64,000 nt of DNA from an uncultured Acidimicrobiia bacterium (GCA_963770095.1 CAVYOO010000003.1:594382-658381), one strand, 5' to 3'; shown: positions 7,327 through 63,719, numbered from the stretch's first letter. Translations and numbers: made by a program. The notes: generated by a model not told the origin, from the sequence alone.

Positions 7327-8082
7327 TCGACGTCGAACAGGACCTGCGCGAGCTGGGCGAGCACCTGGATGTTCCAGCGGGCGAAACGATCATTCCGCGT
7401 CTCCCGCGCGTCCCTTACCGCGCCGGGCTCGGGTACGGCCGCGAGATCGCGCCGGCTTCGCCGCCCGCTCGTCACCGTCGTGGCGTCCGTCGCCGCGGTG
7501 GTGCTCGTCGCGGTCGCGATCCCACCCAGCCGGGATGCGGTCCTCGACGCGTTGGGAGTCGGCTCGGGATCGAACGGAAGCGGTGCCACGGAGCACTCGG
7601 CGGTCCGTCGTCCTCACCCGGCTCCCCCGCCGACCACCGTCCCGCTTCCCGCAGTGCTCTCGCTCGATCTCGCGTCCGCGCGAGCGGCGGTCGGGTTCCC
7701 CATCGGTGTCCCAGGTCCGGCGGGGGTGGTCCCCACCAAGGTCGTGATCGACCGTCGCGTTCCGGGCGGTCTGGTCGTGCTCGAGTACCCGGCGTTCAAC
7801 GTCGTCGAAGTGGCGTCGCCTCCGAACGCCGCGGCCGACCTCGCCCCGACGATCGCCGCGGAGCGCGACGTGCGGATCATGTCGGTGCGGGGCCGCCCTG
7901 CGCTCTGGATCACCGGCACCCACCAGGAGATCCCGTACCTCGATCGCGATGGCATCCTCCGTCGGGGAGTCACGCGCGCGACGGGTCACGTGCTCCTGTG
8001 GGAGGAGAACGGTGTGACCTATCGGGTCGAAGGCTTCGACAACGAGGCGTCGGCGAGAGCGATGGCCACCTCGATCAGCTAG
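7323..8082 (+). CDS. Putative anti-sigma factor (single TM, extracytoplasmic domain); frame switch at about 7380-7450
   Basis: GTG at 7323 overlaps the sigma stop (GTGA coupling). N-terminal 30 codons in frame 0, then a TM helix (LVTVVASVAAVVLVAVAI) and a 200-aa domain in the +1 frame (ORF 7369..8082). Either a frameshift or an internal start at 7369. Confidence 0.5.
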
Positions 8083-8288
8083 TACGACACCGGCCCCGGA
8101 CGGTCATTGGATCAGGGAGGTTCCCATCTCCGCGATCAGCCACCCGGGCCGCGCTCGGGCTCGCTCAGGTCGGGTCACGCGATCAGCGTGGCAGATGGGA
8201 CTCGAGGACGCGCGGAAACAACACGCGAGACGACGCTCGGAGGATGCGCGAAGGTGGGGGGCCGAAAAGGCCGTGACGGAGGGCGTCC

Positions 8289-8849
8289 GTGTTCGACATC
8301 GACGATCTGCTCAGCCGGCTCCAGGAGGCCCGGGCCGAATCCGAGCCCCGGCTCGCGGTGCGCGCGGTGCTCGAACGGGCGCTGAAGGACCCGGCGGCAG
8401 TCGCCGACCAGCTCCGCCCCCGGGAGGGTGGCATCACGATCTTGCACCACGAGCCGGAGCTCACCGTGCTCCATCTGGTGTGGGCACCCGGCATGCATCT
8501 CTACCCCCATGACCATCGGATGTGGGCCGCGATCGGGATCTATGCCGGCGAGGAGGACAACTCGTTCTACCGCCGGGCCGTCCCCGGCGCGGGCGAGCTG
8601 GTTGAGGCTGGTGGGAAGGCAATCGTCGCCGGTGACGTTCTCGTGCTCGGCGACGACGTGATCCACGCGGTCGCGAACCCAGGTGACCGGCTCACCGGTG
8701 CGGTGCACGTCTACGGCGGCGACTTCGTACGCCAGCCGCGCAGCCAGTGGGGGCCCGGACCGCTCGAAGAACGACCGTACGACATGGACGACCTGCGCCG
8801 GCGCTTCTCGGACGCCAACGACGCGTGGCGGGCGTCGTCAGCGCGCTGA
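8289..8849 (+). CDS. Cupin-fold metal-binding protein (COG5553-like double-stranded beta-helix)
   Basis: GTG start with GGAGGG 6 nt upstream. His-cluster PHDHRMWAAIGIYAGEE and VYGGDF typical of cupin metal sites. Confidence 0.55.
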   Translation: MFDIDDLLSRLQEARAESEPRLAVRAVLERALKDPAAVADQLRPREGGITILHHEPELTVLHLVWAPGMHLYPHDHRMWAAIGIYAGEEDNSFYRRAVPGAGELVEAGGKAIVAGDVLVLGDDVIHAVANPGDRLTGAVHVYGGDFVRQPRSQWGPGPLEERPYDMDDLRRRFSDANDAWRASSAR

Positions 8850-8895
8850 TCGCCGAGCAGGGGCTGCCGACCTGACCCGCGGGTAGGTTCTTGGG

Positions 8896-9201
8896 ATGAG
8901 TTCGCCCGGCTCGATTCGCCACGACGCGGGTCGTGCTCGCTACGAATTCGTCGTCGACGGTGAAGCGGTTGGTGTGGCCGACTACCGGCCGGGTGTCGAC
9001 CACGTCGTCATGCACCACACCTTCACGTCCCCTGAGCACCGCGGTCAGGGAATTGCCGCGCAGCTCGTCGCCGGCGCACTCGACGACCTTCGTGAACGCG
9101 GGCTTCGTGTCGATCCCACCTGTTGGTTCGTGGCCGAGTTCATCGACGATCACCCGGCGTACGCGGATCTTCTCGTGGAGCCGCCACCGCCACTCGATTG
9201 A
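8896..9201 (+). CDS. Small GNAT-like N-acetyltransferase (Acetyltransf_CG-type)
   Basis: 101 aa. RYEFVVDGEAVGVADYR...HTFTSPEHRGQGIAAQLVAGALDDLRERGLRVDPTCWFV matches the single-domain YjdJ-like GNAT fold. Confidence 0.7.
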   Translation: MSSPGSIRHDAGRARYEFVVDGEAVGVADYRPGVDHVVMHHTFTSPEHRGQGIAAQLVAGALDDLRERGLRVDPTCWFVAEFIDDHPAYADLLVEPPPPLD

Positions 9202-9346
9202 CCCGCAGCGGGGCGGATCCACGAGTGTCGTTACTCGCGGGTAATGAACGAGCGCGAGACACGGACGAAACATTTGCGAGGTTCGATGTAACCGTGCCGA
9301 GCCCGGCGAGTCGAATCCCTCGGTAGCCCCCGAAGAAGGTTCGCAG

Positions 9347-9619
9347 TTGAACACCATTTCGATCCAAGGCGAACGGATGCACGTTCCCGAACGTCTCGTC
9401 GTCGCCCCGTCCGCCGGCGTGTTCCTCCTGCTCCCACCCGAGGCGACCTCGACGGAGGGTGATCTGGTCGCGCCGGGCCAGTCGATCGGGATCATCGACG
9501 GTCCGGGGACGTCGACCCAGGTGCGCAGCCCGTTCGCGGGATTCCTGATGGGCATGCTCGCCGAACCGGGTCAGCGACTCCGCGCCGGAGAGCCGGTCGC
9601 CTGGTTGCGCAGCGCGTGA
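9347..9619 (+). CDS. Small biotin/lipoyl-attachment-like hybrid domain protein (no AMKM lysine)
   Basis: GDLVAPGQSIGIIDGPGTSTQVRSPFAGFLMGMLAEPGQRLRAGEPVAWL has the barrel-hybrid pattern of BCCP/lipoyl domains but no biotinyl-lysine motif. Stop overlaps the next gene start (GTGA). Confidence 0.4.
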   Translation: MNTISIQGERMHVPERLVVAPSAGVFLLLPPEATSTEGDLVAPGQSIGIIDGPGTSTQVRSPFAGFLMGMLAEPGQRLRAGEPVAWLRSA

Positions 9620-11006
9620 ACCCGCGCCTCGCCGGCTCCATGACGCCGATCATGGATCGCCGGAGCGAGTCTGCCGCGGCGCGCATCGTCGAGTGGGCCG
9701 GTAGCCCGATCGTGGAGCTGCGCGTAGAAGGTGGGAAGCACCATGGCGCGGTGGGCGCAGCCGGTGCCGAGACGATGGAGCGGGCGATCCGCCTGGCCAC
9801 CGAGCTCGGGATGCCGTTCGTCGCCCGGCTCGACACGACCGGCGCCGACGTCGGCGAAGGCGTCAGCTCGCTGCACGGCTGGGGCCGGTGCGCACGCGCG
9901 CTGGTAGACGCTTCGGGCGTCGTCCCGACGATCATCATCGTGACGGGCGCCTGCGTCTCGGGACCGGCGCTCTGCCTCGGGCTCGTCGACCACGTGATCA
10001 TGACGACCGCCGCCTTCGCGTACGTCAGCGGTCCTGAAGCGGTGGCTGAGCTCACTGGCGTCACGCTCGATCGCTTCGAGCTCGGCGGCGCCGCGATGCA
10101 CTGCCGCGACAGTCGGGGTCGCGTCGCTCGTCGTCGAGGACGAACCCGCGGCAGATGACGCGCTCGCGGTCCTGCTGGCGTACCTCCCACCCAACCACGT
10201 TGAAGACGCCCCGTCGTGGTACTGCGACGATCCGGTCGATCGCGATTGTGAGGAGGCCGCCGGCGCCGTCCCGGGCTCACCGACCGCGTCGTATGACGTT
10301 CGGACGGTGGTGCGCGACGTCGTCGATGCCGGCTCGCTGCTCGAGCTGCGTCCACTCCATGCGCCGAACATCGTCGTTGGGCTCGCGCACCTCGACGGGC
10401 GGTCCGTCGGCGTCGTCGCCAACCAGCCGTTCTCGCGAGCGGGTGCCCTGGACATCTCGGCATCGCAGAAGGCAGCGCGGTTCGTGCAGTGGTGTGACGC
10501 GTTCAACCTTCCCGTCGTCACCTTCGTCGACACTCCCGGTTTCGAGCCGGGGAAGGACCTCGAGTGGCGGGGGATGATCCGCCACGGGGCGCAGCTCGTG
10601 CACTCGTACGCCGCGGCAACGGTGCCGCGGTTGTGCGTGGTGTTGCGCAAGGCGTACGGCGGCGCGTACATCGTCATGGACTCGAAGCAGCTAGGGAACG
10701 ACTACTGCCTCGCGTGGCCGGGAGCCCAGATCGCGGTGATGGGAGGGTCCGGCGCAGTGCAGGTCCTGCACGGCAAAGCGCTTGCCGCGATCGACGACCC
10801 CGAGACGCGTCGCCGCGGAGCACGAGCGCCTGCTGACGGAGTACGACGAACGCTTCAACCACCCGTATGCCGCGGCCGAGCGTGGGTACGTCGACGAGGT
10901 GATCGACCCCCTCGATACCCGCCGCGCGCTCTCGGGCGCACTCGATCACTTCTCGCGCAGGCGCGAAGGTGCCCCCAGACGCCGGCACTCGAATTCGCCG
11001 CTCTGA
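9616..11006 (+). CDS. Acyl-CoA carboxylase carboxyltransferase (PccB/AccD-like); two apparent frameshifts at about 10114 and 10810
   Basis: N-domain (LDTTGADVGEGVSSLHGWG...GACVSGPA...GGAAMH) in frame 1. After CGGGG (10114-10118) it continues in frame 2 (SGVASLVVEDEP...VVANQP...KAARFVQWCDAFNLPVVTFVDTPGFEPG...RKAYGGAYIVMDSK). The C-terminal end (AEHERLLTEYDERFNHPYAAAERGYVDEVIDP) is in frame 0. Confidence 0.75.
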
Positions 11007-18168: not shown

Positions 18169-19856
18169 ACTACCGGGAGCTCCGAGCGTGTCGACACGGT
18201 CAAGGCGAGGGTTGCGCGCGGTGTTGCACTACCGCGACTACCGCTTTCTTGTCGCGGCGTCTTCGGTATCGCAGACCGGGGACTGGCTGTACAACGTCGC
18301 GCTGCTCGTCTGGGTCTACGGGGCCACCGGATCGGCGGGCTGGGTCGCATTCGTCACGGTCGCGCGGACTCGTTCCGTACGTGGTGGTGGGTCCATTCGG
18401 CGGCCTGGTCGCGGATCGCTACGACCGGCGCACGATCCTCATCGTCTCCGATGTCTCACGCGCGGTGCTCATGTTCGTGCTCGCGATCGTGACGGCGCTC
18501 GACGGACCAGTCGGCATCGCCGCCGCGGCCGCCTTCCTCACGACTGCCCTCGGGACTGCCTATCGACCTGCAGTGGTCGCGATGCTCCCCGAGATGGTGG
18601 ACGAGCGTGACCTCGCGAGTGCGAATGCGGCCGAGAGCATCGTCGAGAACCTGTCGGTGGTTCTCGGTCCCGCGATCGGCGCCGGTCTGCTCGTCATCGG
18701 AACGACCACCTTCTCGTTCGCACTCAACGGCGTGACGTTCCTCGCGTCCGCGGCCCTCGCGGGGGCTCTGCAGATCCGCAGCCGCGGAGGCGCCCGGCTG
18801 CACGAAGAGGGAAAGAGCTTCTGGTCCGGCCACGTGGTCCACGGATTTCGTGAGCTCGGCCAGACCGCCGATGCACGGGTGCTCGGCGGGTTCATGCTCG
18901 GCACGTCGTTCATCTACGGCATCCAGTCGGTCGTCCTGGTGCTGGTCGCCGGCGAGCAGCTCCAAGCCGGGGTCGACGGCGTCGGGATCTTCTATGCCGC
19001 GCTGGGAGTCGGCGGCGTTGTCGGCGCCGCATTCGTCGGCCGTCTCGCCCGCTCGGCCCGACTCGGCGCAGTCCTCTACGGCGCGTTGCTCGTCGCGTCG
19101 GTACCGATGGCCGCGCTGGCCATCACGAGCTCCGGTGGCCCCGCCTTCACGCTGGTGGTGATGTCGGGCATGGGCATCGTGGTCCTCGACGTGCTCGCGC
19201 TGACCCAGCTTCAGCGCGCGGTTTCGGTCGACGTTCTCGGGCGCGTCTGGGGCGCGCTCGACGCACTGACAGTTGCCGCGATCATCGTGGGATCGCTCGT
19301 CGTGTCACCCGTCATCGACGCGCTGGGCGCCGACTCCGCGTTCATCGTGCTCGCGCTCGCAGTTCCAGCACTCGGGTTGCTCGGCGTCGGTGGGCTGCTG
19401 AGGGCGGATCGTGAATCCGTGGAGCTCCTCGACCGCATTGGGCCGGCGGTGGAGGTCTTCGAGCAGGTGCCGGTGCTCGAGGATGCCGACCGCGCCGTGA
19501 TCGAACGACTTGCGTCGGCCGCGGTCGTCCAGCCCGTGCCGATCGGAACAGACGTCGTCGTACAGGGGGAACCGTCCGAGCACTTCTACATCGTGGAGTC
19601 CGGGCGCCTCGACGTGCTCGTCCAGAGCGACGGCGGTGTACCGGAGCAGGTCAACGTGCTCGGGGCCGGGGACTGGTTCGGCGAGCTCGGGCTTCTGCAC
19701 GACCTGCCCCGGGCCGCGACTGTGCGCGCCCGTTGGCCGTCGCAGGTCTGGCGCATCGACGGGACCGAGCTCCTCGACGCGGTCAACGGCGCGCCGACGC
19801 TGGCCGCGACGCTGCTCGAAGGCATCGCGGGCCGCATCGGTTCCGGCGACCGCTGA
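18140..19856 (+). CDS. MFS transporter fused to C-terminal cyclic-nucleotide-binding domain; frameshift at about 18371
   Basis: N-terminus (YRDYRFLVAASSVSQTGDWLYNVALLVWVYGATGSAGWVAFVTVAR) in one frame, continuing after a 1-bp shift as LVPYVVVGPFGGLVADRYDRRTILIV (EntS-like MFS). C-terminal GTDVVVQGEPSEHFYIVESGRLDVL...GAGDWFGELGLLHDLPRAATVRA is a cNMP-binding fold. Confidence 0.7.
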
Positions 19857-21819: not shown

Positions 21820-23059
21820 ATGCTCCTCGTGCTCCTGCCACTCGGCGCGGCGCTCGTCGTGATCTCCGTCCTCGGGCTGGCCGGGTTCGGGCCGCTCACC
21901 GCTGAGCGTCGCGCGCAGCGAGATGGCGGACTGCGTGCGATCGGTCCTGCGGTCGGGCTGCTCGCGGGGATCGGGGTCATCGCGTTGACCATCGTCGCGA
22001 CCGTCGGGTTGGCCGGGGTTGACGGTCTTGACGATCGTGAAAGTGATGAGCGCGCCGATCAAAGCGAGGTGAAGCCCACCACCACGACGACCGTGTCGAT
22101 CACGACGGGTGCATCGAGATTCACGCGCCAAATCCCGGCCCTCGGACCGGAGATCACCATCGAGGCGGACCGAGGGCGGTCTTTCCCCCATTCCTACGAC
22201 GTCGCCGACCGCCTCGAACCCGCCACCGTGTTACAGATCACGGCGCGGGGATTCGATTCGTTCGGACGGGCGATCGTCGAACAGTGCGGAAGGGTGGGCG
22301 CCGCCAACGCATGCTTCAACCCGCTGCCGGTCCAGCTCGACGCCGACGGCGTCGCTCGGTTCCAATACTTGATCACCGCCGAGTTTGTATTCGGTCGTTC
22401 ACCGCGAGGTGCATGCCGCGCCGCCGCGTCGCCATGCACCGTTGTCGTGCGCGCGGTGACGGGACCTGCTCGCGGCGAGGTCCAGACAATCTTCGGCGAC
22501 GAGATCCCGCCTCCCGGCCAAATCAGGGTCACTCCAGCCACGGAGCTCTCCCTCGAGGGTGGACCGGTGACCGTCGATGTCCGCGACTATCCGCCGGGAG
22601 CCCCGTGTGACCGCGATGCTCTGCGCGGCGCCGCATGCCTCCGGCCCGGGCTGCGGCGCGCCGGGCCCGATGGCTCCGCTCGTCGTCGGTCGCGATGGTC
22701 GGGGGAGCACCGAGCTCGTCATCAGCCCGGGTCCGGTCGGCAGCCGAGGCCTGCCGTGCGCGCGGGGTGACGATTGCGGGGTGACGGTCGTCTCCGACGA
22801 CGTGTTCGCCCGTGCTCCCGTGGTGCCGATCTCGTTCGCCGCGCCGCCCGGGGCCGACTACGACCCCGCGCGGCTGGTGCTGGGGCTCGCCATCGCGACG
22901 ATCCTCTCAGGCATCGGCGCGTGGTTGATCCTGCGCACGGACTGGTCGGCGGTCGGCGAGGCCGCGGCGCCCGAGATCGACGACGCAGAGTTCGCAGACC
23001 TGGACGCGATCGTCGCCGCACTGCCACCGGAAGAAGACGAGCTCGTCAGCGCGAAGTAG
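21820..23059 (+). CDS. Membrane-anchored cell-surface protein with Thr-rich linker and Cys-containing repeats; frameshift at about 22615
   Basis: N-terminal TMs, TTTTVSITTG linker, repeated C..C modules. Reading continues in the +1 frame (ORF 22577..23059) ending with a TM plus acidic tail. Confidence 0.45.
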
Positions 23060-24128: not shown

Positions 24129-24937
24129 ACCTGTTGTTGGTCGAGATGCGTCGGGCGCTGCATCGCCGTGTGCTCCGTGTGATGGTGGCGCTCGCGCTGT
24201 TCTGGTGCGCGTTCGCCGGGGTCGTCGCGTTCCTGAGCTCGAGCGGCAAGACCCTCGCTGAGCTGCACCGGCGCGGTGCCACCCATCCCGCAGTGCTCAC
24301 CGACTGGTGGGCGCCGGGTCAGGACAGCGCCGTGCTCACCGCGGCGATCTTCCTGATGCTCGGTGGCTTTTTCACCGGCGCGGCCGTGGCCGGAGCGGAG
24401 TGGCGTGCCGGCACCGTGACAACGGTGCTGACGTGGGAGCCGCGCCGGGTCCGTCTGAACCTGACCCGCACTGCCGCCGGGCTGATCCTTGCGTTCATCA
24501 TCGCGACATTCCTCCAGGTCATGTTCCTCGCGTCGTTCCTTCCCGCCGTGCTCGCGAACGGCTCGACCTCGGGCGCGGGCAGCGACTGGTGGATCTCGTT
24601 GGGACTCGCCATCGCCCGGACGTCGCTACTCACCGCGATCGTGTCGGTGCTCGGAGTCGCGCTCGCGACGCTCGGCCGCAACACCGCGTTCGCGCTGGAG
24701 TCGTATTCGCGTGGATCGCGGTGATCGAAGGCGTGATTCGCAGCCAATGGCCCGGGTTGGCCCAGTACCTCTGGGTCGAGAACCTCGTAACCACCGAGGA
24801 GTGGGACCAGATGCGCAACGTCGAGTTCACCCGTGGCCCGCTGCTCGCGCTCGACAACCCTGGTGCTCTACACCGGAGTGCTCGTCGTCGTCGCGACGGT
24901 CGTCTTCCGTCGCCGAGATGTCGCCGGAAGCTCGTAG
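24125..24937 (+). CDS. ABC-2 family permease; two apparent frameshifts at about 24700 and 24860
   Basis: Start overlaps the ATPase stop. 6-TM ABC-2 topology. Protein continues across three frames (...LATLGRNTAFAL / GVVFAWIAVIEGVIRSQWPGLAQYLWVENL / LVLYTGVLVVVATVVFRRRD*). Confidence 0.65.
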
Positions 24938-48581: not shown

Positions 48582-49971
48582 TCAGGCGAGGGCGAGGATC
48601 TCGGCGAAGCCTTCGTCGAGGCAGCGCAGGAAGGTGTCGGAGTCGGGGACGGCCACCGAGTCGACGTTCACCCCGATGCAGCAGGTACCGGCGTTCGACA
48701 GCAGCGTGACGTTGATCGCGGCGCCGGCGAGTGGGGCAAACGCGTACATGCGTTCGAGTGCGGCGCCGGCCGAGAAGATCTCGAACGGCGCGCCCGGCAC
48801 GTTGCTCGTGATGAAGTCCGCGCCTTTCAACATTGATCCGAACACCGCGGTCGTGATGGTCGTGGGGAGCTGGTTGAGGATGCCGGCGAGTGCGTCCGTC
48901 AGCTGGACCGCCGGCTCGGCTCGGACCTCCCGAGTGAGCTTGCCGACCGCGACGATCCGATCGCTCGGGTCCTTGATCGTGAGCGGGACCAGGAAGCGGG
49001 CCGGCGTGAAGTGGTTGCCGCCGAGCGCAGCCCCGTTCTCCCGCAGGTTGATGGGCATCACCATGCGCAGGTCGTCGATGCTCGCGCCATGGAACTCGTG
49101 GTACCGCTGCATCCCGCCGAGCACCGCCGCGACGAACGCATCGTTCAACGACCCGCCGACCGTCTTCGCCGAAGCCTTGAGACCGTCGAGCGGGACATCG
49201 AGGGTGCCGAGCTGCCCGCAGGGTGCGCGAGCGCATGATCGGCGAGTGGGGGTCGGTAGCCGGCGCGAGGAACCGCACGATCGAACCCGCGGCACGCAGC
49301 GCTTCATGCAGGACACTGGCGGGATCGTTCATGACCGCACGCGCCACCTCGACCGAGTCGATCACCGTCCGGCGCACGATGCCGAGCGTGCGCCGCTGCC
49401 GGTGCCCGATCGCACCGAGCACGAGGTCCATCGGCGTGAAGATCCGGACGGCCTCGACCCGGTCGAGCGCGGCGGCCGGTTCGGGGTCGCGCTCGAAGTC
49501 GAACAGCATCAGGAGGAGCTTCATCCCGCCGACGCCGTCGGTCATCGAGTGGTGGACCTTCAGGATCATCGCCGACTTCCCGCCTTCGAGACCCTCCACG
49601 ATCGTGTACTCCCAGAGCGGTCGGGCGCGATCGAAGCCGGCCATCGCCGACGTTCGGGCCAGGTCCAGCACCGCGTCGAGGGTGGGTTCGCACGCCTTGA
49701 CCCGGCGCAGGTGGTAGCGGAGATCGAAGTTCGCGTCGCCGGACCACCGCGGCGGACCCATACGCAGCAACGGCGTTGCGACGCGCTGGCGCAGGCGCGG
49801 GATCAACCACGTCCCCCGTTCGATCTTGTCGACGAGCCGGTCCCAGTCGGGAGGCTGGTCGAGCAACAGCACGGTGACGATCGTCGAACGAAGGAGTGGA
49901 TCCTTCTCGATGTTCCACATCAGCGCGTCGGAGTCACTCATGTGAGTCTCGAAGCGCTCCGCTCCCGTCAT
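48582..49971 (-). CDS. Wax-ester synthase/diacylglycerol acyltransferase (WS/DGAT); frameshift at about 49215
   Basis: N-terminus with HHSMTDGVGG (HHxxxDG active site) in one frame. C-terminal 240 aa (...NDAFVAAVLGG...LTREVR...NVPG...) in the other (ORF 48582..49316). Combined length about 463 aa. Confidence 0.75.
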
Positions 49972-51467: not shown

Positions 51468-51580
51468 GTTCGTCTCCCTCTCGACGGACTCCCGTGACCG
51501 GGAGCGACGGTTGGACGTCGGCGGCGCGCTGGTAGGTTCCCGGACCGTGACGATTCCTCCGGGCGCGCGGCGACGGCTAC

Positions 51581-52444
51581 GTGGTCACGAACGGCATCCG
51601 GATGTACTTCGTCGAGCAGGGAACCGGACCGCTGGTGCTGCTGTGTCACGGGTTCCCGGAGCTCTGGTACTCGTGGCGCTTCCAGCTCCAGCCGCTCGCG
51701 GACGCGGGGTTCCACGTCGTCGCCGTGGACATGCCCGGGTACGGTCGCTCCGACAAGCCCGACGTGCACTACGACATGGAATGGGTCAACGTGTGCTCGC
51801 CGGTGTGATCACCGGGTTGGGTCACGAGCGTGCGGTCCTCGCCGGCCACGACTGGGGCGGTCTTCTGGTCTGGCCGTTCGCGCGGCGCCATCCCGAGCTG
51901 ACGGCCGGGGTGATCGGGGTCAACACACCGGATCTTCCACGAACGCCCATCCCGTTCGTCGAGATGCTGCGCAACATCTTCCCGGACGAGCCGCCGTACA
52001 TCGTGCAGTTCCAGGAGCCCGGGGTGGCCGAGTGGGTGCTGTCGTGGGGTCGCGGCGCGATCGACTTCCTCGAGCTGATGCTGCGCGGGCTCGTCACGGT
52101 GAACAAGGACGCGTTCCCGGACGACGTGCTCGCGGTGTACGCCGACGCGCTCAGCCCCCGCGGCCGCGTTCACGCCGCCCCTCGAGTACTACCGGAACCT
52201 CGATCGCTCTTGGCACCTGACCGCGGATCTGGCCGACCTCACGATCGACGTCCCCTGCCTGATGATCAGCGCGGAGAACGACCCGGTCACGACGCCGGCA
52301 ATGGCGGAGGGCATGGAGGCCCGGGTGCCCGATCTCGAGAAGGTCGTCATCCCCAATTGCGGCCACTTCACCCAACAGGAGCGGCCTGCGGAGACCACGT
52401 CGGCCATGCTCGGCTACCTCCGCCGGCTCGATCCCTGGCCGTGA
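51581..52444 (+). CDS. Alpha/beta hydrolase (epoxide hydrolase/haloalkane dehalogenase-like); two frameshifts at about 51785 and about 52190
   Basis: LLCHGFPELWYSWRFQ (HGxP plus W), then AVLAGHDWGGLLVW (nucleophile Asp), then ...LEYYRNLDRSW...VIPNCGHFTQQERP (His) spread over three frames. Confidence 0.7.
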
Positions 52445-53127: not shown

Positions 53128-54154
53128 ACGCGGACCGGCGTGTCCCACAGGACGGTCGCGGCGTCGGCTTCGGTGAGCCCGTGCTCGGCCGATTCGCGCA
53201 GGAAGCTGGTGACGGCCTCAGGGTAGAGCGCGTCCGGATGCGGGAAGTCGGACGCCCACATGACGTGGTCCGCGCCGACCTGGGTGACGACCCACGCCGC
53301 GAGCGGGTCGTCGGGGTCCGTGCAGATCGCGCACTGCCGCTCGAAGTACTCCGACGGCGCCAGGCTCAGGTCGCGGGTCTCTGAATCGGCCATCCATTCG
53401 GCGTGGCTGTCGAGGCGGGACAACCAGTAAGGGAGCCAGCCGGTGCCCGACTCGAGGAACGCGACGAGAAGCGACGGGTGGCGTTCGAGCGCACCCAGCA
53501 GCAGCAGGCTCCCCATCGCGGCCATCTGCTCCATCGGATGGCTCATGGCGTGGCGCAACGCGAAGGTCTCGGACCGGTCGCGGCCGATGGTGGGGCCTCG
53601 CACGCCGAGACCCTCGTGCACGGACAACGTGAGCTCGCGCGCCTCGAGCACGTCGTAGAGCGGGTCGTACTCCCGTTCGCCGAGGTCGCGGCCGTAGAGC
53701 GGATTGGGCCGCACCATCACACCCGGTAGTCCCAAGCCGGCTGCGTGCTCGGCCTCGCGCGCCGCGAGCCCGGGATCGACGGTGGGGACGAGCGCCATGC
53801 CCGTCATCCGTGTCGTGTCAGTCGCGCAGTACTCGGCGATCCACTCGTTGTACGCGTGCGGCACGCGCCGGCCGACGCTTCGGCGGACAGCGACGGGAGG
53901 AACGGAACGAACAACCCGATGGAGGGGTAGAGCACCACCGCGTCGATGCCCTCCCGATCCATGCAGCGGAGGTACTCCCGGGCGGAGCAGCCGTCGGCGA
54001 GGAAGTCGGCGAGGACCGCGGGATCGCCGCACGGGATCATCGGCGTCGTCGGGGGCAGGTCGATGACGTTCAGGCCCGCCCCGATGGCGCCGAAGAGTCC
54101 GGGCGGCTCGATGACGTGTGCGTCCGCATCGAGGATCCGCAGCCCGTCGCGCAT
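53085..54154 (-). CDS. Amidohydrolase-2 family (TIM-barrel metal-dependent hydrolase/decarboxylase); frameshift at about 53885
   Basis: N-terminus LRILDADAHVIEPP (HxH metal site) in one frame. Remainder (AYNEWIAEYCA...SVHEG...ASDFPHPD) in ORF 53085..54032. Confidence 0.7.
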
Positions 54155-54161
54155 CGCCGGC

Positions 54162-56534: not shown

Positions 56535-57757
56535 TCATGTGAGCTCGGTTCGGTCGGGGCGGATGACGCGGAGGTCGCGGCCGTCGAACTCGACGATCCA
56601 GTCGGGTTGGTGGATGACGTGGTGGTGGTGGTCGCAGAACAGGATGAGGTGGTCGAGGTCGGTGGGCCCGCCGTGGTGCCATGGGGTGGTGTGATGGGCT
56701 TCGCACCAGCCGGGTGGTCGGTCACAGCCGGGGAATCGGCAGCCCTGGTCGCGGGCGATGATCGCTCGCCGTTGGGCGGGGGTCGGGGTGCGCCGACTCC
56801 GACCCACATTCAGGGGTCGGGAATCGGGGCCGGTGACGACCCGGCTGATCGAGCTGTCACAGAGGAGCCGGTCGATGGCGTGGGGGTGGATGGGGCCGGT
56901 GAACTGGCCGTCGAGGCGCCCGAGCCGGCCTTGGGTGAGGGTGGCCCAGTCGATGACGACAGTGACCTGGGTTTGGGGTCGTTGCTGGTCGTGGAGGTGC
57001 GCGAGCGCGACGTCCGAGATCCGTACGAGGGCGTCGGCGTAGCGCTGTGCCGTGGTGCGCGGGTCGTCGACCCTCGGTGGGTCGACGTAGGCGTGGAGGG
57101 CGGTGACGACTTTCTCGGCGCCGAGGTCGGAGAGGTCTCGGCGGAGAGCACGACGCGCCCGGCGAAGGTCTTCGAGACGTGCAGGCCGTCGCGGTCGCCG
57201 GGTGCGGTCCCATCGGCGGTGGCGAGGTTCCGGAAATGCGCCGCCGCGCGGCGCAACGACCGCAGGTCGCCGCGGCGGGCGAGGGTGAGGAGCTCGGGTT
57301 CGCAGGCGACGAGGGTGTCGTCGTGACCCGCGACTTGGGCGGCGACGATGGTGCGGGTCGCGCCGGTGGAGATCTCCCCGGCCCGCCACGCCCGTCCCGT
57401 CTCGGCGAGCAGCTCGCAGACCTCACCACATTCGATCGCGGCTTTCGCGTCGCCTTCACGCATCCCGGCCCGGTGCCGTAGCCACGACGCGGTCGACGCC
57501 GCCCCATCGGTCGAACCCACCCCCCGGACATGAGCGGCATGGGCCAGGCGAGCGAACACCGCCTCCTGACGGTCCATCTCCCTGCGCAACGCGATCAACT
57601 CCGCCGCGAGCCCACCATCCGACAACTCGACCGGATCAACCTCGCGCGAGGTCGTCCACGACGCCGCGCAACCGGTCGACCGGACGCGCCACCGGGTACG
57701 AAACACCAACCGACACCGTTCACTCCCCACAGCTCGAACCCGTGACGCGGACTGCAC
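56535..57757 (-). mobile_element. DUF222 ('13E12-repeat') HNH endonuclease gene; frameshift at about 57150. Selfish/mobile-type gene
   Basis: N-terminal DUF222 region (LSDGGLAAELIALRREMDRQEAVFARLAHAA...RDGLHVSKTF) in ORF 56810..57757. C-terminal part with HNH motif (CRFPGCDRPPGWCEAHHTTPWHHGGPTDLDHLILFCDHHHHVIH) in ORF 56535..57389. Start approximate. Confidence 0.65.
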
Positions 57758-58371: not shown

Positions 58372-59298
58372 AGGTGTTCGTGACGGGCGCGACCGGAGTC
58401 GTGGGGACCCCGACCGTGGCGAAGCTCGTGGAGGCCGGCCACGAAGTGCGCGACGATCGCGCGCCGGGAGGAGGCCGCGCAGAGGTTGAAGGCGGCCGGC
58501 GCCGAGCCCGTGACCGTCGATCTCTTCGACGCCGCCGGGATCAGCGCAGCCGTCGCGGGGACGGACGCCATCGCGCATCTCGCGACCAACGTGCCCCCGT
58601 TCCCGCAGCTGGTGCGTACCAAGGCCTGGGCGACGCACAACCGGATCCGGACCGAGGGCACCCGCAACCTGGTCGACGCGGCGCGCGCGAACGGCATTGG
58701 CCGCATCCTGAAGGAGTCGATCACGTTCGTCTACGCCGACGGTGGGGACGCGTGGCTCGACGAGACCGCGCCGATCATCGCCCAGCTCGGGCTGATGGCG
58801 CCGACGATCGACGGGGAGAAGATCGCCCTCGAGCTCGGCGAAGACGGTGGCGCGGCGGTCGTGCTCCGCTTCGGGCTCTTCTACGGCGGCGCCAACCGCG
58901 GCACCGACGAGATGCTCCGGCTCGCGCGCTGGCGCGCGTCGATGGTGGCGGGCAAGGGCAGCTCGTTCATGAGCTCGATCCACGCCGAGGATGTCGCGAC
59001 CGCGGTCGTGGCCGCGTTGGACGCGCCCACCGGGATCTACAACGTCTGCGACGACGAGCCCCTCACCCGCCGCGACGCGCTCGACGCGTTCTCCGCCGCG
59101 TTCGACGTCGGTCGGTTGCGCACGAACCCGACCTGGATCATGAAGCTGTTGGCCGGTCCGGCCGCGGCATCGCTCATCGCGTCGCAGCGGGTCTCGAACC
59201 GGAAGTTCCGCGACGCGACCGGGTGGTCACCGATGTATCCGAGCCTGCGCGAAGGCTGGAAGGCCGAACGCACGAAACGGGAGCTGAACCATGCGTGA
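58368..59298 (+). CDS. NAD(P)-binding NmrA-like/atypical SDR epimerase-dehydratase family protein; frameshift at about 58447
   Basis: ATG overlaps the Rrf2 stop (ATGA). MKVFVTGATGVVGTPTVAKLVEAGHEV then +1 frame ARREEAAQRLKAAGAEPVTVDLFD... (ORF 58486..59298). Confidence 0.7.
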
Positions 59299-59725
59299 GA
59301 CGGTGTTACGAATCGGACTGGCGGTCCTCGCGGTTCCCGCATTGATCATCGGGGTCTGGGCGGCGTTCGCCCCGCGCTCGTTCTTCGACGACTTCCCCGG
59401 CCTCGGCCGCGTGTGGGTCGCGCCGGACGGCCTCTACAACCAACATCTGGTTCGTGACGTCGGCGAGCTCAACCTCGCCCTCGTCGTCGTGACCACGGTG
59501 GCGTTGGTGACGCTCGCACCGATGCTCGTGCGAGCCGTCCTGGCGGGCTGGATCGTCTACTCGGTGCCCCACCTCGTGTACCACCTGCGCAACATGGAGC
59601 CGTTCGCGACCGACGACCAGGTGTCGATCGCGGCGAGCCTCGCGCTCGTGCCGATCCTCGCGATCGTCCTGTTCGTCATCGAGGTCCGAGCCCCCCAGGA
59701 GGCGACGGTCGAGCCGGTGACATGA
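59291..59725 (+). CDS. Small 4-TM membrane protein (unknown)
   Basis: 144 aa, four hydrophobic helices, intact. Confidence 0.5.
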   Translation: MRETVLRIGLAVLAVPALIIGVWAAFAPRSFFDDFPGLGRVWVAPDGLYNQHLVRDVGELNLALVVVTTVALVTLAPMLVRAVLAGWIVYSVPHLVYHLRNMEPFATDDQVSIAASLALVPILAIVLFVIEVRAPQEATVEPVT

Positions 59726-60494
59726 TGCGCCCATCACGGTCGACCGCCCGCTCTTCACGTTCGAACACGCCGGCCTCGTCGGAGCCGACGGTCGGGACCG
59801 GTTGGTCGATGTCACCGGGGAGGTCGCGCCCGATGGCGTGACCGTCGTCGTCGGTCCGTCCGGCGCCGGGAAGTCGAGCCTGCTGCGGCTTTGCAACCGA
59901 CTCGAGGTCGCGGACCGGGGTTCGGTGCGCTTCCGTGGTGAGGATGTCGCAGGCATGGACCCCCTCGCGTTACGCCGCCGCGTCGGGATGGTCTTCCAGA
60001 CGCCGACCCCGTTTGCCGGGACCGTGTTCGAGAACCTCCGCGTCGCGCGTCGCGATCTGGACCCGGCGGCGGCGGAGCAGGCGCTCGAACGGGTCGAGCT
60101 CGACGCCTCGTTCCTCCCCCGACCGGCGTCCGAGCTGTCGGGCGGTGAGGCGCAGCGCATGTGCCTCGCGCGGACCCTCGTGACCGGCCCCGAGGTCCTG
60201 CTCATGGACGAGCCGACGTCCTCGGTCGACCCGCAGGCGACCGTCGCGCTCGAACAGCTGGCGCGGCAGCTCCTCGACCACGGAGTCGTCTGCATCTGGG
60301 TGACCCACGACCTCGCGCAGATGCGCCGCCTCGCCGATCAGGTCCTCGTCGTGCTCGACGGCTCGATCGCGCAGGCCGGCCCACTCGCCGACCTCGATCG
60401 GGACGCATCACCGGCGGTCGCTCAGTTCCTCCTCGGCGCGGACGATCCTGCGCCCGGCGAGCGAGCTCACGGAGACCCGGGGGAACATGGCTGA
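59722..60494 (+). CDS. ABC transporter ATP-binding protein, FetA/YbbL-like; likely frameshift at the extreme 5' end
   Basis: GPSGAGKSSLLR, LSGGEAQRMCLARTL, LLMDEPTSSVD. Coding frame (DAPITVDRPLFTFEHAGLV...) opens just after the ATG at 59722 but out of frame with it. TTG at 59802 is the first in-frame start. Confidence 0.75.
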
Positions 60495-61265
60495 CATCGG
60501 CTGGAGCGGGCTGGCGATCTCGCTGGTGCTCGTCGGGATCGCGATCGGACTCTCGATGTGGCGCGGGCTCGGCCTCGAGCGGAGCATCGCGTGGGCAACC
60601 GTGCGCGCGCTCGTGCAGCTGCTCGCGGTGGGCCTCGCGCTGCAGGTGCTGCTGCGGCCCGAGACGTCCCTCGGGTGGTCGGTGCTGTGGGTGCTCGGAA
60701 TGATCGTGTTCGCCGCCGAGACCGTCCGCCGCCGCGCCGCGAGGTGCCGCAGGTGTTCCCTCTCGCGCTGGCCGCGTTCGGCGCCGCGGCGGTCGTCGTG
60801 CTCGGGGTCCTGTTCGGCTTCGGAGTGTTCGAGCTCGACGCGCGGACGCTCATCCCACTTGCGGGTCTGATGATCGGGAACTCGATGACCGCGACGGTGC
60901 TCGTCGCGCGCCGGCTCGTGGAGGAGCTGCGCGACAAGCGGGCCGAGGTCGAGGCCCGGCTCGCGCTCGGTCAGCCGTCCGTCGACGCGGCCGCTCCGTA
61001 CGTCCGCAACGCGCTGCGGACCGCGCTCGTGCCCCAGATCGAGACGACGAAGGCGGTCGGCCTGATCTTCCTGCCGGGGGCGATGACCGGCCTGATCCTC
61101 GCCGGGGTCGACCCGCTGGAAGCGGTGCAGGTGCAGGCCGCGGTGATGTTCGTGGTGCTCGCGTCCGCGGCGACGACCACCGCGGTGGTTGCCCTCGGGG
61201 TCCGCCGGCGGCTGTTCACGGCGGATCACCGGTTGGTCCGGCTGGAGCGGACCGCCGAGCGCTGA
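60487..61265 (+). CDS. ABC permease FetB/YbbM-like (UPF0014); frameshift at about 60745
   Basis: MADIGWSGLAISLVLVGIAIGLS...AAETVRR then +1 frame ...VFPLALAAFGAAAVVVLGV...MIGNSMTAT...PGAMTGLILAGVDPLEAVQVQAAVMFVVLA. Confidence 0.7.
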
Positions 61266-61286
61266 GCCCGGCTCCGGACGTGGTGG

Positions 61287-61373
61287 CTAGCGCCGGCCCA
61301 CGTTGGGGCGCTTGCCGTGGTTGGCCTTGTTGCGGCGGGCCCGCAGCTTGCGCTTCTTCGTCTTCTTGCTCAC
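61287..61373 (-). CDS. Tiny (28-aa) highly basic protein, bS22-like composition (candidate ribosome-associated small protein)
   Basis: GTG at 61373 with GGAGGAG 7 nt upstream. Product VSKKTKKRKLRARRNKANHGKRPNVGRR. Listed ORF 61287..61559 is longer but only this part has an RBS. Confidence 0.4.
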   Translation of the reverse strand: MSKKTKKRKLRARRNKANHGKRPNVGRR

Positions 61374-61433
61374 GGTTCTGGCTCCTCCACGGCGAAGCGG
61401 GTCAGCGTAGTCCAGGGTCCTAGAGTCACTCCC

Positions 61434-62456
61434 ATGGAACACCTCGGGCTCGTGGGGCTCGCCGACTCGGGGCACGCCCGGCTCTTCTCCGCCCTGACCG
61501 GTCTCGACGCGGCCACCTCCTCGGACAAGGTGCTCGGCGTCGTCCAGCTGCCGGATCACCGCCTGGACCAGCTCGCGGCGATGTCGGAGTCCAAGAACGT
61601 GGTCCCGGCGACCTTCGAGATCATGTACATCCCGGGCCTCTCCACCGAGCCCGGCAAGGGGCTCGGGAGCCGCCTCCTGGGCCAGCTCCGGGACTGCGAC
61701 GCCGTCCTCTTCGTGCTCCGCGCCACCGACGGCAACGACCCGGCCTCGGACCTCGAGACCCTGGAGTACGAGCTCGTCCTGGCCGACCTCGCGTCGGTCG
61801 AGCAGCGGTTGGGCAAGCAGCAGCGCCTCTACAAGGGGGACAAGACCCTCGGTCCGGAGATCAAGGCGCTCGAGCGGGCGATCGAGGTCCTCGGCGACGG
61901 CACGCCGGTCTACCGCTCGGACCTCACCGCCGACGAGCGCGCGCTGCTCGGGCCCGTCTTCCTCCTGACCAACAAGCCGGTGCTGCCCGTCGTGAACATC
62001 GGGGTCGAGCAGCTCGAGGAAGCGGACGCGATCGCGAAGCCGCTCGGCGACGACGCGCTGTCGGTCTGCCTCGAGCTCGAAGGCGACCCGGACGTCGTCG
62101 CCGCGGAAGGTGCTGATCGCGCCGAGCTGCTCGCGGACCTCGGCGTCCCCGAGAGCGTCGTCCCGCGGCTCGCCGCGCGGCGTACCAGCTGCTCGGGTTG
62201 CGCACCTTCCTCACGACGGGGGACAAGGAGAGCCGCGGCGTGGGGATTCCGCGCCGGTGCACGCGCGCCGGAGTGCGCGGGCGTCATCCACTCGGACCTG
62301 GAGCGGGGGTTCATCCGCGCCGAGGTCATCCGCTGGGACGAGCTGCTGGAGCTCGGTTCGTGGGCGAAGGCCAAGGAGGCGCACAAGCTGCGGGTGGAGG
62401 GCAAGGAGTACGTCGTTGCCGACGGTGACGTGCTCGAGATCCGATTCAACGTGTGA
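61434..62456 (+). CDS. ychF: Redox-regulated ATPase YchF (Obg-family GTPase); two frameshifts at about 62180 and about 62240
   Basis: MEHLGLVGLADSGHARLFSALTG (G1), ...FLLTNKPV..., C-terminal TGS domain APECAGVIHSDLERGFIRAEV...VVADGDVLEIRFNV. Middle segment YQLLGLRTFLTTGDKESR lies in another frame. Confidence 0.85.
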   Translation: MEHLGLVGLADSGHARLFSALTGLDAATSSDKVLGVVQLPDHRLDQLAAMSESKNVVPATFEIMYIPGLSTEPGKGLGSRLLGQLRDCDAVLFVLRATDGNDPASDLETLEYELVLADLASVEQRLGKQQRLYKGDKTLGPEIKALERAIEVLGDGTPVYRSDLTADERALLGPVFLLTNKPVLPVVNIGVEQLEEADAIAKPLGDDALSVCLELEGDPDVVAAEGADRAELLADLGVPESVVPRLAARRTSCSGCAPSSRRGTRRAAAWGFRAGARAPECAGVIHSDLERGFIRAEVIRWDELLELGSWAKAKEAHKLRVEGKEYVVADGDVLEIRFNV

Positions 62457-62465
62457 CCGTGGATC

Positions 62466-62808
62466 GTGAGGTTGCCGGACGTGTGGCTCGTACGTGACGG
62501 TGAGGTGCTCGCAACCGCGGAGTCGCGCGCGCACCCGGCGGGAGCGTTCACGCGGGCTGCTCGGTCGCGACGGGTTCGAAGGCGCGCTCCTGTTCCGCAA
62601 GTGCCGCCAGGTGCACACGATCGGGATGCGCTTCGCGATCGACGTCGCGTTCTGCGATGCCGACGGAACGGTGATCCGCACCTCGTGCCTGCGCCCCTGG
62701 CGCCTCTCGCCACTCGTCTGGCGATCGAAGCTGGTCATCGAAGCCGAAGCCGGCGCCTTCGAACGCTGGAACCTCCGCCCCGGCGACCGCATCGAGATCA
62801 AAGAGTGA
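62466..62808 (+). CDS. DUF192 family protein; frameshift in G-run at about 62545
   Basis: MRLPDVWLVRDGEVLATAESRAHPAG then +1 frame RGLLGRDGFEGALLF...HTIGMRFAIDVAFCDADGTVIRT...LVIEAEAGAFERWNLRPGDRIEI. Confidence 0.7.
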
Positions 62809-62827
62809 CCCCCACCCACCCCCGTCT

Positions 62828-62862
62828 GTTGCATTCGGTTCCTCTGGGGAACCGAATGCAAC
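62828..62862. terminator. Perfect 15-bp stem/5-nt loop hairpin GTTGCATTCGGTTCC-tctgg-GGAACCGAATGCAAC
   Basis: Seen in sequence 20 nt after the DUF192 stop, upstream of rsmI. Confidence 0.5.
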
Positions 62863-62883
62863 CAACGACGGGCTCCGACCGTG

Positions 62884-63719
62884 ATGCTCGTGGTGATCGG
62901 GACTCCGATCGGGAATCTGGGGGACCTGTCGCCGCGGGCAATCGACGCGTTGCGGGACGCGGACGTGATCGCGTGCTGAGGACACGCGGCGGACGCGGAA
63001 GCTGCTGTCGCACACGGGGATCTCGGCCGAAGGGCGGCTGCGCGCGGTGCACGCGCACAACGAGGCGCAGGCGGCGGAGCGGATCGTCGACGAGGTGCGC
63101 AGCGGGTTGACCGTGGTCTACGCGACCGACGCGGGGATGCCGGGCGTCAGCGACCCGGGCGCGCGCATCGTGCTCGCGTGCCGGACCGCGGGGCTCGCCG
63201 GTGCAGGTCATCCCGGGGCCGAGTGCCGCGCTCGCCGCGCTCGCGCTGTCCGGGTTCCCGGCCGACCAGTTCGTGTTCGAAGGGTTCCTCCCACGCAAGG
63301 GGAAGGAACGAAGGGAACGGATCGCAAACATCAAAGGTGAAGCGCGCACTGTCGTCATCTTCGAAGCGCCGAACCGGGTTGCCGCGACGCTCACCGACCT
63401 GGCCGCGGTCTGCGACGGCGAACGACTCGTCTGCGTCGCGCGCGAGATCACCAAGCTCCACGAAGAGGTGTTCCACGGCCCGCTCGAGACCGCGGCGGCA
63501 ATCGCGCACGCCGGTGAGCCACGAGGCGAGCACGTCATCGTCCTCAACGGGCAGCCCGCGGACATCACGCCCGCGACCGAGGAAGCGCTCGACGACGCGG
63601 TGCGCGCCGCGCTCGACCGCGGTCTCTCGGCCAAGGACGCGGCGGCGGAAGTCGCCGCGAGCCTCGGCGTGCCGAAGCGCCGGGCCTACGAGCTGGCGGT
63701 CACGCTCCGGAAGCGGTGA
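62884..63719 (+). CDS. rsmI: 16S rRNA (cytidine1402-2'-O)-methyltransferase RsmI; two frameshifts at about 62978 and about 63200
   Basis: MLVVIGTPIGNLGDLSPRAIDALRDADVIAC | EDTRRTRKLLSHTGI...LTVVYATDAGMPGVSDPGARIV | ...QVIPGPSAALAALALSGFPADQFVFEGFLPRKGKERRERI...VIFEAPNRV in three frames. Confidence 0.8.

What the first reader, a model, noticed from the sequence alone, without database searches (positions are those of the whole stretch)
7380..63250. About 24 single-base frameshifts in otherwise perfectly conserved genes, most likely assembly indel errors rather than pseudogenes
Genes whose conserved protein sequence continues seamlessly in another frame (all positions approximate): PccB-like (about 10114 at cGGGG; about 10810), MFS-cNMP (about 18371), surface protein (about 22615), ABC-2 permease (about 24700 at GGG; about 24860), glycosylase (28959-63 at GGGGG), flotillin (about 32745 at cGGGG), Zn-ADH (about 34851 at GGG), alpha/beta hydrolase (about 42375), WS/DGAT (about 49215), epoxide-hydrolase-like (about 51785; about 52190 at CCCC), amidohydrolase (about 53885), DUF222-HNH (about 57150), NmrA-like (about 58447), FetA start (about 59725), FetB (about 60745), ychF (two), DUF192 (about 62545 at cGGG), rsmI (two). 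Possibly also the anti-sigma gene at about 7400. No in-frame stops or larger lesions accompany them. Density rises sharply after about 49 kb, where nearly every gene is hit. Many sit at G/C homopolymers. Universally conserved housekeeping genes (ychF, rsmI) carry two each. That pattern fits homopolymer-biased sequencing or polishing error, not genome decay. It matters for any downstream gene-content inference.
Basis: partly seen in the sequence, partly recalled or inferred. Interest (0 to 1): 0.5.

Follow-up and report, generated by a model that had tools for sequence, protein, structure and literature searches.

The report
Single-base assembly indels breaking genes
About two dozen genes in this stretch of an uncultured Acidimicrobiia genome are each broken by one extra or missing base, and the pattern fits consensus errors of an error-prone long-read assembly rather than gene decay, so it matters only as a warning for gene-content analyses.

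Summary
Each is one net base, and the conserved protein continues in another frame. Support comes from intact orthologues in related contigs or from consecutive profile coordinates. The tentative anti-sigma site is probable. I found one more site, in the epoxide-hydrolase-like gene at 51569-70. One listed site is wrong: the fetA "start frameshift" is a conserved ATC start codon.

The total is 24 events, about 16 insertions and 8 deletions, in 18 of roughly 60 genes. Thirteen fall in the last 15 kb (binomial P about 0.001). No nonsense codons or larger lesions accompany them.

The public record already carries the lesions. It is a 785-kb contig in NCBI/ENA. The nearest relative is a Nanopore-only MAG from the Microflora Danica catalogue, and it has breaks of its own elsewhere. 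Two long-contig MAG loci show 3-13 unexplained frame switches per 10 kb. The short-read-type contigs, and one other long-contig MAG, show 0-0.7.

The assembly-error reading is therefore well supported, though reads are needed for proof. The homopolymer claim is not supported: runs of 3 or more occur at chance level. The sites are instead enriched in CGCG/CCGC contexts. This is an ordinary artefact of low interest.

The parts
7400..7440 (+). Probable +1 base in the anti-sigma gene. The N-terminus is in frame 2 from GTG 7323; the TM helix and C-domain are in frame 0.
   Evidence: The N-terminal peptide VIDxExDLRxLGxHLDxPAGE is conserved with L083 in frame 2, and the C-domain is conserved in frame 0.
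10114..10114 (+). PccB-like carboxyltransferase, +1 base (the C before GGGG).
   Evidence: Pfam Carboxyl_trans 70-196 in frame 0, then 193-425 in frame 1.
10798..10805 (+). PccB-like carboxyltransferase, second +1 base (either CCC to CCCC, or an A after GAG).
   Evidence: Pfam 193-425 in frame 1, then 429-492 in frame 2.
18366..18367 (+). MFS-cNMP transporter, +1 G (CGA to CGGA).
   Evidence: L081 (92% nt), L082 and L083 are all uninterrupted here. The public gene call P0001 is 491 aa against about 555 aa for homologues.
22606..22608 (+). Surface/membrane protein, +1 base (CCGGTG to CCGTGTG).
   Evidence: tblastx against L083: both halves lie in one L083 frame but in two window frames.
24697..24698 (+). 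ABC-2 permease, -1 G (GGG to GG).
   Evidence: tblastx against L083.
24856..24857 (+). ABC-2 permease, +1 A.
   Evidence: tblastx against L083.
28959..28963 (+). AlkZ-like glycosylase, +1 G in a G run (G4 to G5).
   Evidence: The N-terminus LKISGDRARRIALG is in frame 2 and matches L164/L165; the rest is in frame 0.
32753..32754 (+). Flotillin/SPFH gene, -1 base in a GCGCGCGC context.
   Evidence: L164 alignment; tblastn shows q1-601 in one frame and q594-697 in another.
34848..34849 (+). Zn-dependent alcohol dehydrogenase, -1 base.
   Evidence: L164 and L165 417-aa orthologues are split over two window frames.
42388..42391 (-). Alpha/beta hydrolase, +1 base near the C-terminus, giving a false extension of about 100 aa.
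   Evidence: The L164 244-aa orthologue aligns q1-231 and then stops at 42390, and the DNA alignment has a gap there.
49215..49217 (-). WS/DGAT, net +1 (CC to CCC on the + strand; a 2-nt deletion is not excluded).
   Evidence: The L001 ORF is split at 49204-49232. The Pfam catalytic and C-terminal domains lie in different frames.
51569..51570 (+). Epoxide-hydrolase-like gene, +1 G eight codons after its GTG start.
   Evidence: VTIPPGAR is conserved with L001 through five synonymous changes in frame 0; the gene then continues in frame 1.
51796..51797 (+). Epoxide-hydrolase-like gene, -1 C.
   Evidence: L001 ORF q25-99, then q99-236 in another frame.
52155..52159 (+). Epoxide-hydrolase-like gene, +1 C (C4 to C5).
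   Evidence: L001 ORF q99-236, then q233-327 in another frame.
53855..53858 (-). Amidohydrolase, net -1.
   Evidence: L002 orthologue q1-118 and q119-372 lie in different frames.
57125..57150 (-). DUF222-HNH gene, net -1. The position is known only to about 25 nt.
   Evidence: DUF222 profile 6-139 and 172-306 lie in two frames.
58453..58456 (+). NmrA-like/epimerase gene, +1 base after the GxxGxxG motif.
   Evidence: MKVFVTGATGVVG is in frame 2. The Epimerase profile from position 25 onward is in frame 0. The L001 ORF is continuous.
60737..60738 (+). FetB (UPF0014) gene, -1 C (CCC to CC).
   Evidence: L084 alignment; Pfam 1-80 then 79-242 in two frames.
62173..62175 (+). YchF-like gene, -1 base.
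   Evidence: L084, L085 and L002.
62237..62238 (+). YchF-like gene, +1 G, which restores the frame 63 nt later.
   Evidence: L084, L085 and L002. The 21 codons in between read the conserved AAYQLLGLRTFLTTGDKESR only in the shifted frame.
62524..62533 (+). DUF192 gene, +1 base inside a (CG)n run.
   Evidence: L001, L084 and L085 all show a net +1 in the window.
62976..62977 (+). rsmI, +1 base (TGYGAG to TGCTGAG).
   Evidence: L001 and L085; TIGR00096 1-31 then 32-105.
63197..63198 (+). rsmI, second +1 base (CTCCCG to CTCGCCG).
   Evidence: L001; TIGR00096 32-105 then 106-272.
59721..59738 (+). Not an indel: the fetA-like start region. An in-frame TGA sits at 59721-3 and a conserved ATC start codon at 59736-8.
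   Evidence: Orthologues L100, L097 and L088/89 have the same ATC and no canonical start. L128 and L132 have ATG and GTG at that codon.

Best explanation
The frame breaks are single-base insertion and deletion errors in the consensus of an error-prone long-read metagenome assembly. The platform is inferred, most likely a Nanopore-only, lightly polished, low-coverage MAG. The organism's real genes are intact.

Shown: each lesion is one net base, and removing or adding it restores a full-length protein collinear with orthologues.

Inferred: the extra and missing bases arose during base-calling, consensus building or polishing. They cluster where local read support was poorest, which here is the last 15 kb. 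They are context-dependent, falling in CG-alternating sequence more than in homopolymers.
For: (1) 24 lesions, all net +/-1, about 16 insertions and 8 deletions. No nonsense codon or larger lesion occurs in any coding segment.

(2) Orthologues are uninterrupted at every site in L081 (92% nt), L084 (88% nt), L082, L164, L165, L001 and L002.

(3) There is no decay after the breaks. MFS identity to L081 is 91.7% upstream and 94.7% downstream. rsmI fragments abut exactly at profile positions 31/32 and 105/106. The out-of-frame ychF segment still encodes the conserved peptide in the original frame.

(4) The public record is a 784,667-bp contig in NCBI+ENA whose gene call is already truncated, 491 aa against about 555. 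Among the MFS homologues, 5 of 6 on contigs longer than 150 kb are truncated. Those on short-read contigs are full length unless cut by a contig end.

(5) A crude count of same-strand frame switches without a stop gives, per 10 kb: window 2.3; L001 (MFD Nanopore MAG) 2.9; L083 (4-Mb ENA contig) 13.4. The other seven related loci give 0-0.7, namely JGI and Logan contigs, the NCBI contig L164 and the 2.6-Mb MAG contig L002. L001 and L083 breaks sit at other positions and hit conserved genes.

(6) The MFD long-read catalogue, which holds the nearest relative, is Flye plus one round of Medaka with no short-read polishing (PMC12313526). Low-coverage Nanopore bins (below 40-fold) are reported to need short-read polishing, and indels in assembly consensus to cause frameshift errors in gene calling (PMC9262707).

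(7) The sites cluster, with 13 of 24 in the last 15 kb (P about 0.001). They are enriched in CGCG and CCGC contexts (9 and 10 of 22 against 2.6 and 3.4 expected). This suggests a systematic, context-dependent error.
Against: - No reads were available, so no lesion is proven to be an error.
- The source record and its platform could not be identified. The Nanopore attribution rests on relatives and contig length.
- The 2:1 excess of insertions and the lack of homopolymer enrichment are not the textbook Nanopore signature.
- The closest intact orthologues are 8-12% divergent in DNA. They show that the intact state is ancestral, not that it is present in this population.
- Site placement within CG-rich repeats is ambiguous by a few bases.
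Confidence: 0.9

Rival explanations
1. The lesions are real: a very recent burst of single-base indels, for example in a mismatch-repair-deficient lineage or at the onset of genome reduction. This would have inactivated about 30% of the genes in this region.
For: The indels are in the deposited sequence. Multi-hit genes (PccB, ABC-2, epoxide-hydrolase-like, ychF, rsmI) are what neutral decay of dead genes would give. The context bias could in principle be mutational.
Against: - There are 24 frameshifts and no nonsense codon, large deletion or IS insertion. If even 25-40% of real inactivating lesions were of other kinds, as assumed from pseudogene-rich genomes, zero among 24 has a probability of 1e-3 to 5e-6.
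- Conservation is not relaxed downstream of the breaks.
- The ychF pair leaves the conserved peptide in the abandoned frame.
- The same phenomenon appears at different sites in two long-contig MAG loci from relatives (L001, L083). It does not appear in the short-read-type contigs or in the long-contig MAG L002.
Confidence: 0.05
2. The consensus is a chimera of co-existing strains. Local switches between haplotypes during assembly or polishing created spurious indels, mainly in the last 15 kb.
For: Clustering of 13 of 24 events in 15 kb. L001 also shows clustered breaks. Soil MAGs are typically strain mixtures (general knowledge).
Against: This is a sub-type of assembly artefact rather than a true rival. 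Nothing in the sequence distinguishes it from low coverage. DNA identity to L001 does not shift across 49 kb (78-84% throughout).
Confidence: 0.04
3. The breaks are sites of programmed ribosomal frameshifting or transcriptional slippage, and the genes are expressed as full-length proteins.
For: None beyond the fact that the frames rejoin seamlessly.
Against: - Orthologues are in frame at every site, so no recoding site is conserved.
- The contexts share no slippery heptamer, and both +1 and -1 shifts occur in unrelated genes.
- Three shifts in one 300-aa gene and two within 63 nt are not how known recoding works.
Confidence: 0.01

Closest known systems
Indel consensus errors in long-read (Nanopore) assemblies that fragment gene calls, as measured by the IDEEL test (PMC9262707; MFD-LR catalogue PMC12313526)
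   Same: Single-base indels; truncated or split gene calls relative to homologues; more frequent in low-coverage MAGs; found here on a 785-kb contig whose nearest relative is a Nanopore-only MAG.
   Different: The classical description is deletions in long homopolymers. Here two thirds are insertions, and runs of 3 or more are not enriched. Only five sites have a run of 4 or more within their uncertainty interval, and only two are clear length changes of such a run (the G5 at 28959-63 and the C5 at 52155-9). The sites favour CGCG/CCGC contexts.
Pseudogene-rich decaying genomes such as Mycobacterium leprae or recent host-restricted pathogens (from general knowledge)
   Same: A high fraction of genes is interrupted, and some genes carry several lesions.
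   Different: Those genomes show mixed lesion types (nonsense codons, deletions, IS elements), loss of codon bias and relaxed constraint. None of these is seen here.
Programmed frameshifts such as prfB (+1) and dnaX (-1) (from general knowledge)
   Same: The protein continues in another frame.
   Different: Those sites are conserved across orthologues and have defined slippery motifs. Here the orthologues are in frame and no motif is shared.

Membership tests
Long-read assembly indel artefact | Each lesion is a 1-base (rarely 2-base) indel whose reversal restores a full-length ORF collinear with homologues. | tested here: met
   24 sites. DNA alignments to L081, L084, L164 and L001, and contiguous Pfam/NCBIfam coordinates.
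Long-read assembly indel artefact | The lesions are absent from accurate reads of the same sample. | not testable with these tools
   No reads were available and the source record is not retrievable. No same-population short-read contig was found; the best are 92% and 88% nt.
Long-read assembly indel artefact | The sequence comes from an error-prone long-read assembly. | tested here: inconclusive
   The contig is 784,667 bp in NCBI+ENA and the nearest relative is an MFD Nanopore MAG. The platform of the source itself is unknown.
Long-read assembly indel artefact | Comparable assemblies show the same kind of lesion at unrelated positions, while accurate assemblies do not. | tested here: met
   L083 13.4 and L001 2.9 per 10 kb, against 0-0.7 for the other seven related loci (JGI, Logan, L164, L002).
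Long-read assembly indel artefact | Homopolymer bias (the classical Nanopore signature). | tested here: not met
   Runs of 3 or more at 8 of 22 sites against 7.8 expected. Runs of 4 or more at 5 against 2.0 (P 0.045). CGCG/CCGC contexts are enriched instead.
Genuine pseudogenes / genome decay | Mixed lesion spectrum: nonsense codons, larger deletions, IS insertions. | tested here: not met
   Only net +/-1 indels were found. Coding segments are otherwise stop-free and collinear with orthologues.
Genuine pseudogenes / genome decay | Relaxed constraint and loss of codon bias downstream of the lesion. | tested here: not met
   The GC3 signal continues in the new frame. Identity downstream is equal to or higher than upstream. 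Profile coordinates abut.
Programmed frameshifting | The shift site is conserved in orthologues and has a slippery motif. | tested here: not met
   Orthologues are in frame at all sites. No shared heptamer was found.

The most novel reading that the evidence does not exclude
The indels are real and mark a hypermutating or newly decaying Acidimicrobiia population caught within a short time of a burst of single-base indels in CG-alternating sequence.

A milder variant keeps them as errors but makes them systematic. They would occur at a CGCG/CCGCGG-like motif because that motif is methylated in this organism, so the error map would report its methylome.
Probability: 0.05. Interest if true: 0.5.

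Novelty: not a real feature. Interest (0 to 1): 0.1.

Why it matters
The finding matters only as quality control. In this window about 30% of genes would be called truncated, split, falsely extended or, for ychF, silently wrong over 21 residues. After 49 kb the fraction is about half. Pseudogene counts, pathway completeness, protein-family clustering and start-site statistics drawn from this genome would all be biased. The public protein set already contains the truncated products (P0001).

Two points are of practical use. First, homopolymer-aware correction would fix only a minority of these sites, so frame-aware or read-based polishing is needed. Second, one apparent "error", the fetA start, is a genuine ATC start codon and should not be "corrected".

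Tried and rejected
- Exact look-ups of window proteins to find the source contig or same-strain contigs returned nothing. The source is visible only as protein P0001.
- A search for in-frame stop codons by tblastn of all reference ORFs was uninformative. High-GC shadow frames dominate the hits, so I relied on the stop-penalised segmentation instead.
- A single tblastn HSP seemed to show AlkZ unbroken. Inspection showed that the N-terminal 13 residues were a spurious extension and that the real N-terminus is in frame 2.
- NmrA at 58447 first looked like two separate genes. It proved to be Rrf2 plus a frameshifted NmrA-like gene.
- HMM frame switches at 1753, 13102, 15039, 21175, 24123, 27805, 33056, 40141, 40884, 44990, 47816, 49971, 54169, 54933, 59291 and 60445 are ordinary gene boundaries or segmentation noise.
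- The fetA start frameshift was rejected.
- The homopolymer hypothesis was tested and not supported.
- L083 could not serve as a clean reference because it carries many indels of its own.
Full report
**What the window is.** The 64-kb window is 69% GC throughout. Its genes are most similar to those of uncultured Acidimicrobiia. The best genome match for the thioesterase at 55732-56517 is MAG MFD05442.bin.2.200 (locus L001, 80% aa), followed by Acidimicrobiia STL-ACT7 (L002, 61%). A fragment of the MFS gene is 100% identical to protein P0001. The database holds P0001 from NCBI and ENA on a single contig of 784,667 bp. P0001 is 491 aa, whereas homologues are about 555 aa. The deposited record therefore already has this gene truncated, and the window is a faithful copy of a long-contig MAG. 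The contig itself could not be retrieved.

**Checking the observation.** I segmented the window with a seven-state Viterbi model that uses codon-position GC and penalises in-frame stops. I then fetched related DNA to use as references:
- L001, syntenic with 46-64 kb.
- L081, a JGI contig 92% identical in DNA over 17998-20355.
- L082 and L083.
- L084 and L085, JGI contigs 88% and 80% identical over 60.6-62.9 kb.
- L164 and L165, syntenic with 26.6-45.9 kb.

At each listed site, either the orthologue is one continuous ORF while the window needs two frames, or a Pfam/NCBIfam profile is matched by consecutive coordinate blocks in different frames. Examples of the second kind:
- PccB: Carboxyl_trans 70-196, 193-425 and 429-492 in three frames.
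- FetB: UPF0014 1-80 and 79-242.
- DUF222: 6-139 and 172-306.
- rsmI: TIGR00096 1-31, 32-105 and 106-272.

The ychF claim of two shifts is correct and subtle. A -1 at 62173-5 and a +1 at 62237-8 leave one open frame. The 21 codons between them match homologues (AAYQLLGLRTFLTTGDKESR) only in the shifted frame.

In all, 23 of the 24 listed sites are confirmed. The tentative anti-sigma site is probable. I found one more: a +1 G at 51569-70, eight codons into the epoxide-hydrolase-like gene. Upstream of it the peptide VTIPPGAR is conserved with L001 through five synonymous changes.

**One site is not a frameshift.** The fetA-like gene has an in-frame TGA at 59721-3 and no ATG, GTG or TTG before 59802. 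Yet its conserved N-terminus (ITVDRPLFTFEH) begins at ATC 59736. Orthologues on JGI contigs L100, L097 and L088/L089 have the same ATC and likewise no canonical in-frame start. L128 and L132 have ATG and GTG at exactly that codon. This is a conserved non-canonical ATC start, not an indel.

**Anatomy of the lesions.** There are 24 events in 18 of roughly 60 genes. All are net +/-1, with about 16 insertions and 8 deletions. WS/DGAT could instead be a 2-nt deletion. Eleven events lie in the first 49 kb and thirteen in the last 15 kb (binomial P about 0.001). Only 9 of about 18 genes after 49 kb are hit. Two SDRs, a thioesterase, ECH, SIMPL, Rrf2, fetA and others are intact.

A run of 3 or more identical bases lies in the uncertainty interval of 8 of 22 sites against 7.8 expected. 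For runs of 4 or more the figures are 5 against 2.0 (P 0.045). Only two sites are clear length changes of such a run, the G5 at 28959-63 and the C5 at 52155-9. The sites are instead enriched for CGCG (9 against 2.6) and CCGC/GCGG (10 against 3.4) within 3 nt (P about 3e-4 each, borderline after correction for 136 tetramers). Typical cases are GCGCG to GCGCGG (MFS, epoxide-hydrolase-like, ychF) and losses inside GCGCGCGC (flotillin, ychF). No coding segment contains a nonsense codon or a larger lesion. Every remaining same-frame interruption is a normal gene boundary also present in relatives.

**Why assembly error is the best explanation.**
1. The lesion spectrum is pure. If real inactivating mutations included even 25-40% nonsense or larger events (an assumption from known pseudogene-rich genomes), zero among 24 has a probability of 1e-3 to 5e-6.
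2. There is no sign of relaxed constraint. The GC3 signal continues in the new frame. MFS identity to L081 is 92% before and 95% after the break. Profile coordinates abut to the residue.
3. The ychF pair shows that selection has acted on the original frame up to the present.
4. The pattern tracks the kind of assembly, not the organism. A crude count of unexplained same-strand frame switches gives, per 10 kb: 2.3 for the window, 2.9 for L001 (a Nanopore-only MAG) and 13.4 for L083 (a 4-Mb ENA contig). The other seven related loci give 0-0.7. These are JGI and Logan contigs, the NCBI contig L164 and the 2.6-Mb MAG contig L002, so long contigs as such are not the cause.
5. L001's breaks fall outside the region shared with the window. 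They split a conserved gene of about 510 aa into three frames, against dozens of intact homologues. L083 carries about 25 single extra bases in about 12 kb of alignment to the window.
6. Among MFS homologues, five of six on contigs longer than 150 kb are truncated. Those on short contigs are full length unless cut by a contig end.
7. The MFD long-read catalogue was built with Flye and one round of Medaka without short reads, and its authors inspected it for Nanopore-associated errors (PMC12313526). Nanopore bins below about 40-fold coverage are reported to need short-read polishing, and consensus indels to cause frameshift errors in gene calling (PMC9262707).

**Rivals.**
- Real recent pseudogenisation is not excluded without reads, but it is contradicted by points 1-6 (confidence about 0.05).
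- Strain-mixture consensus is a variety of the same artefact.
- Programmed frameshifting is excluded in practice. Orthologues are in frame at every site, both directions of shift occur, and no slippery motif is shared.

**Limits.**
- The platform of the source is inferred, not known.
- The insertion excess and the CG-context bias are not the textbook Nanopore pattern. They may reflect the particular base-caller or polisher, or a methylated motif. I could not test this.
- Exact indel placement is ambiguous by a few bases in CG-rich repeats. For DUF222 and the anti-sigma gene it is ambiguous by 25-40 nt.

**Verdict.** The lesions are ordinary assembly artefacts of no biological novelty.

Noticed in passing
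window 59721-59810 (+); L100 about 7372, L097 about 1055, L088 about 8290, L128 about 8380, L132 about 2961: The fetA-like ABC ATPase appears to start at a conserved ATC codon (59736). No canonical in-frame start exists after the upstream stop in the window, L100, L097 or L088/89. L128 and L132 have ATG and GTG at the same aligned codon.
   Followed up: partly
window 61434-62456 (+): The 'ychF' gene is a YchF-like protein with a degenerate P-loop (GLADSGHARLF instead of GxPNVGKST). It scores 246 bits on TIGR00092, below the 279-bit cutoff. The same variant is conserved in L002, L084 and many soil metagenome contigs.
   Followed up: partly
window 56508-57846 and 59662-62470, compared with L001 10776-10814 and 12636-13023: The DUF222-HNH gene and the fetA-fetB-ychF-like block are present in the window but absent between the same flanking genes in the closest relative L001. 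This suggests insertion or deletion of these segments since the two lineages diverged.
   Followed up: no
L001 14481-16012 and about 19329; L083 throughout: Related long-contig MAG loci carry frame breaks of their own. L001 splits a conserved gene of about 510 aa into three frames at about 14797 and about 15615. L083 has about 29 unexplained frame switches in 21.7 kb, mostly single extra bases.
   Followed up: partly
22 indel sites across window 10114-63198: The indel sites are enriched for CGCG (9 against 2.6 expected) and CCGC/GCGG (10 against 3.4) within 3 nt, but not for homopolymers of 3 or more. This may be a context-specific or methylation-related consensus error.
   Followed up: partly
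window 36900-39242 (+): A 780-aa ORF with strong coding signal has no Pfam or NCBIfam match. It is absent from the syntenic position in L164.
   Followed up: no
window 19873, 20351, 61434, 62811-62819, 26668: Single-base length differences from close relatives also occur in intergenic DNA. They cannot be classed as error or real variation, but they are consistent with indel errors not being confined to genes.
   Followed up: no
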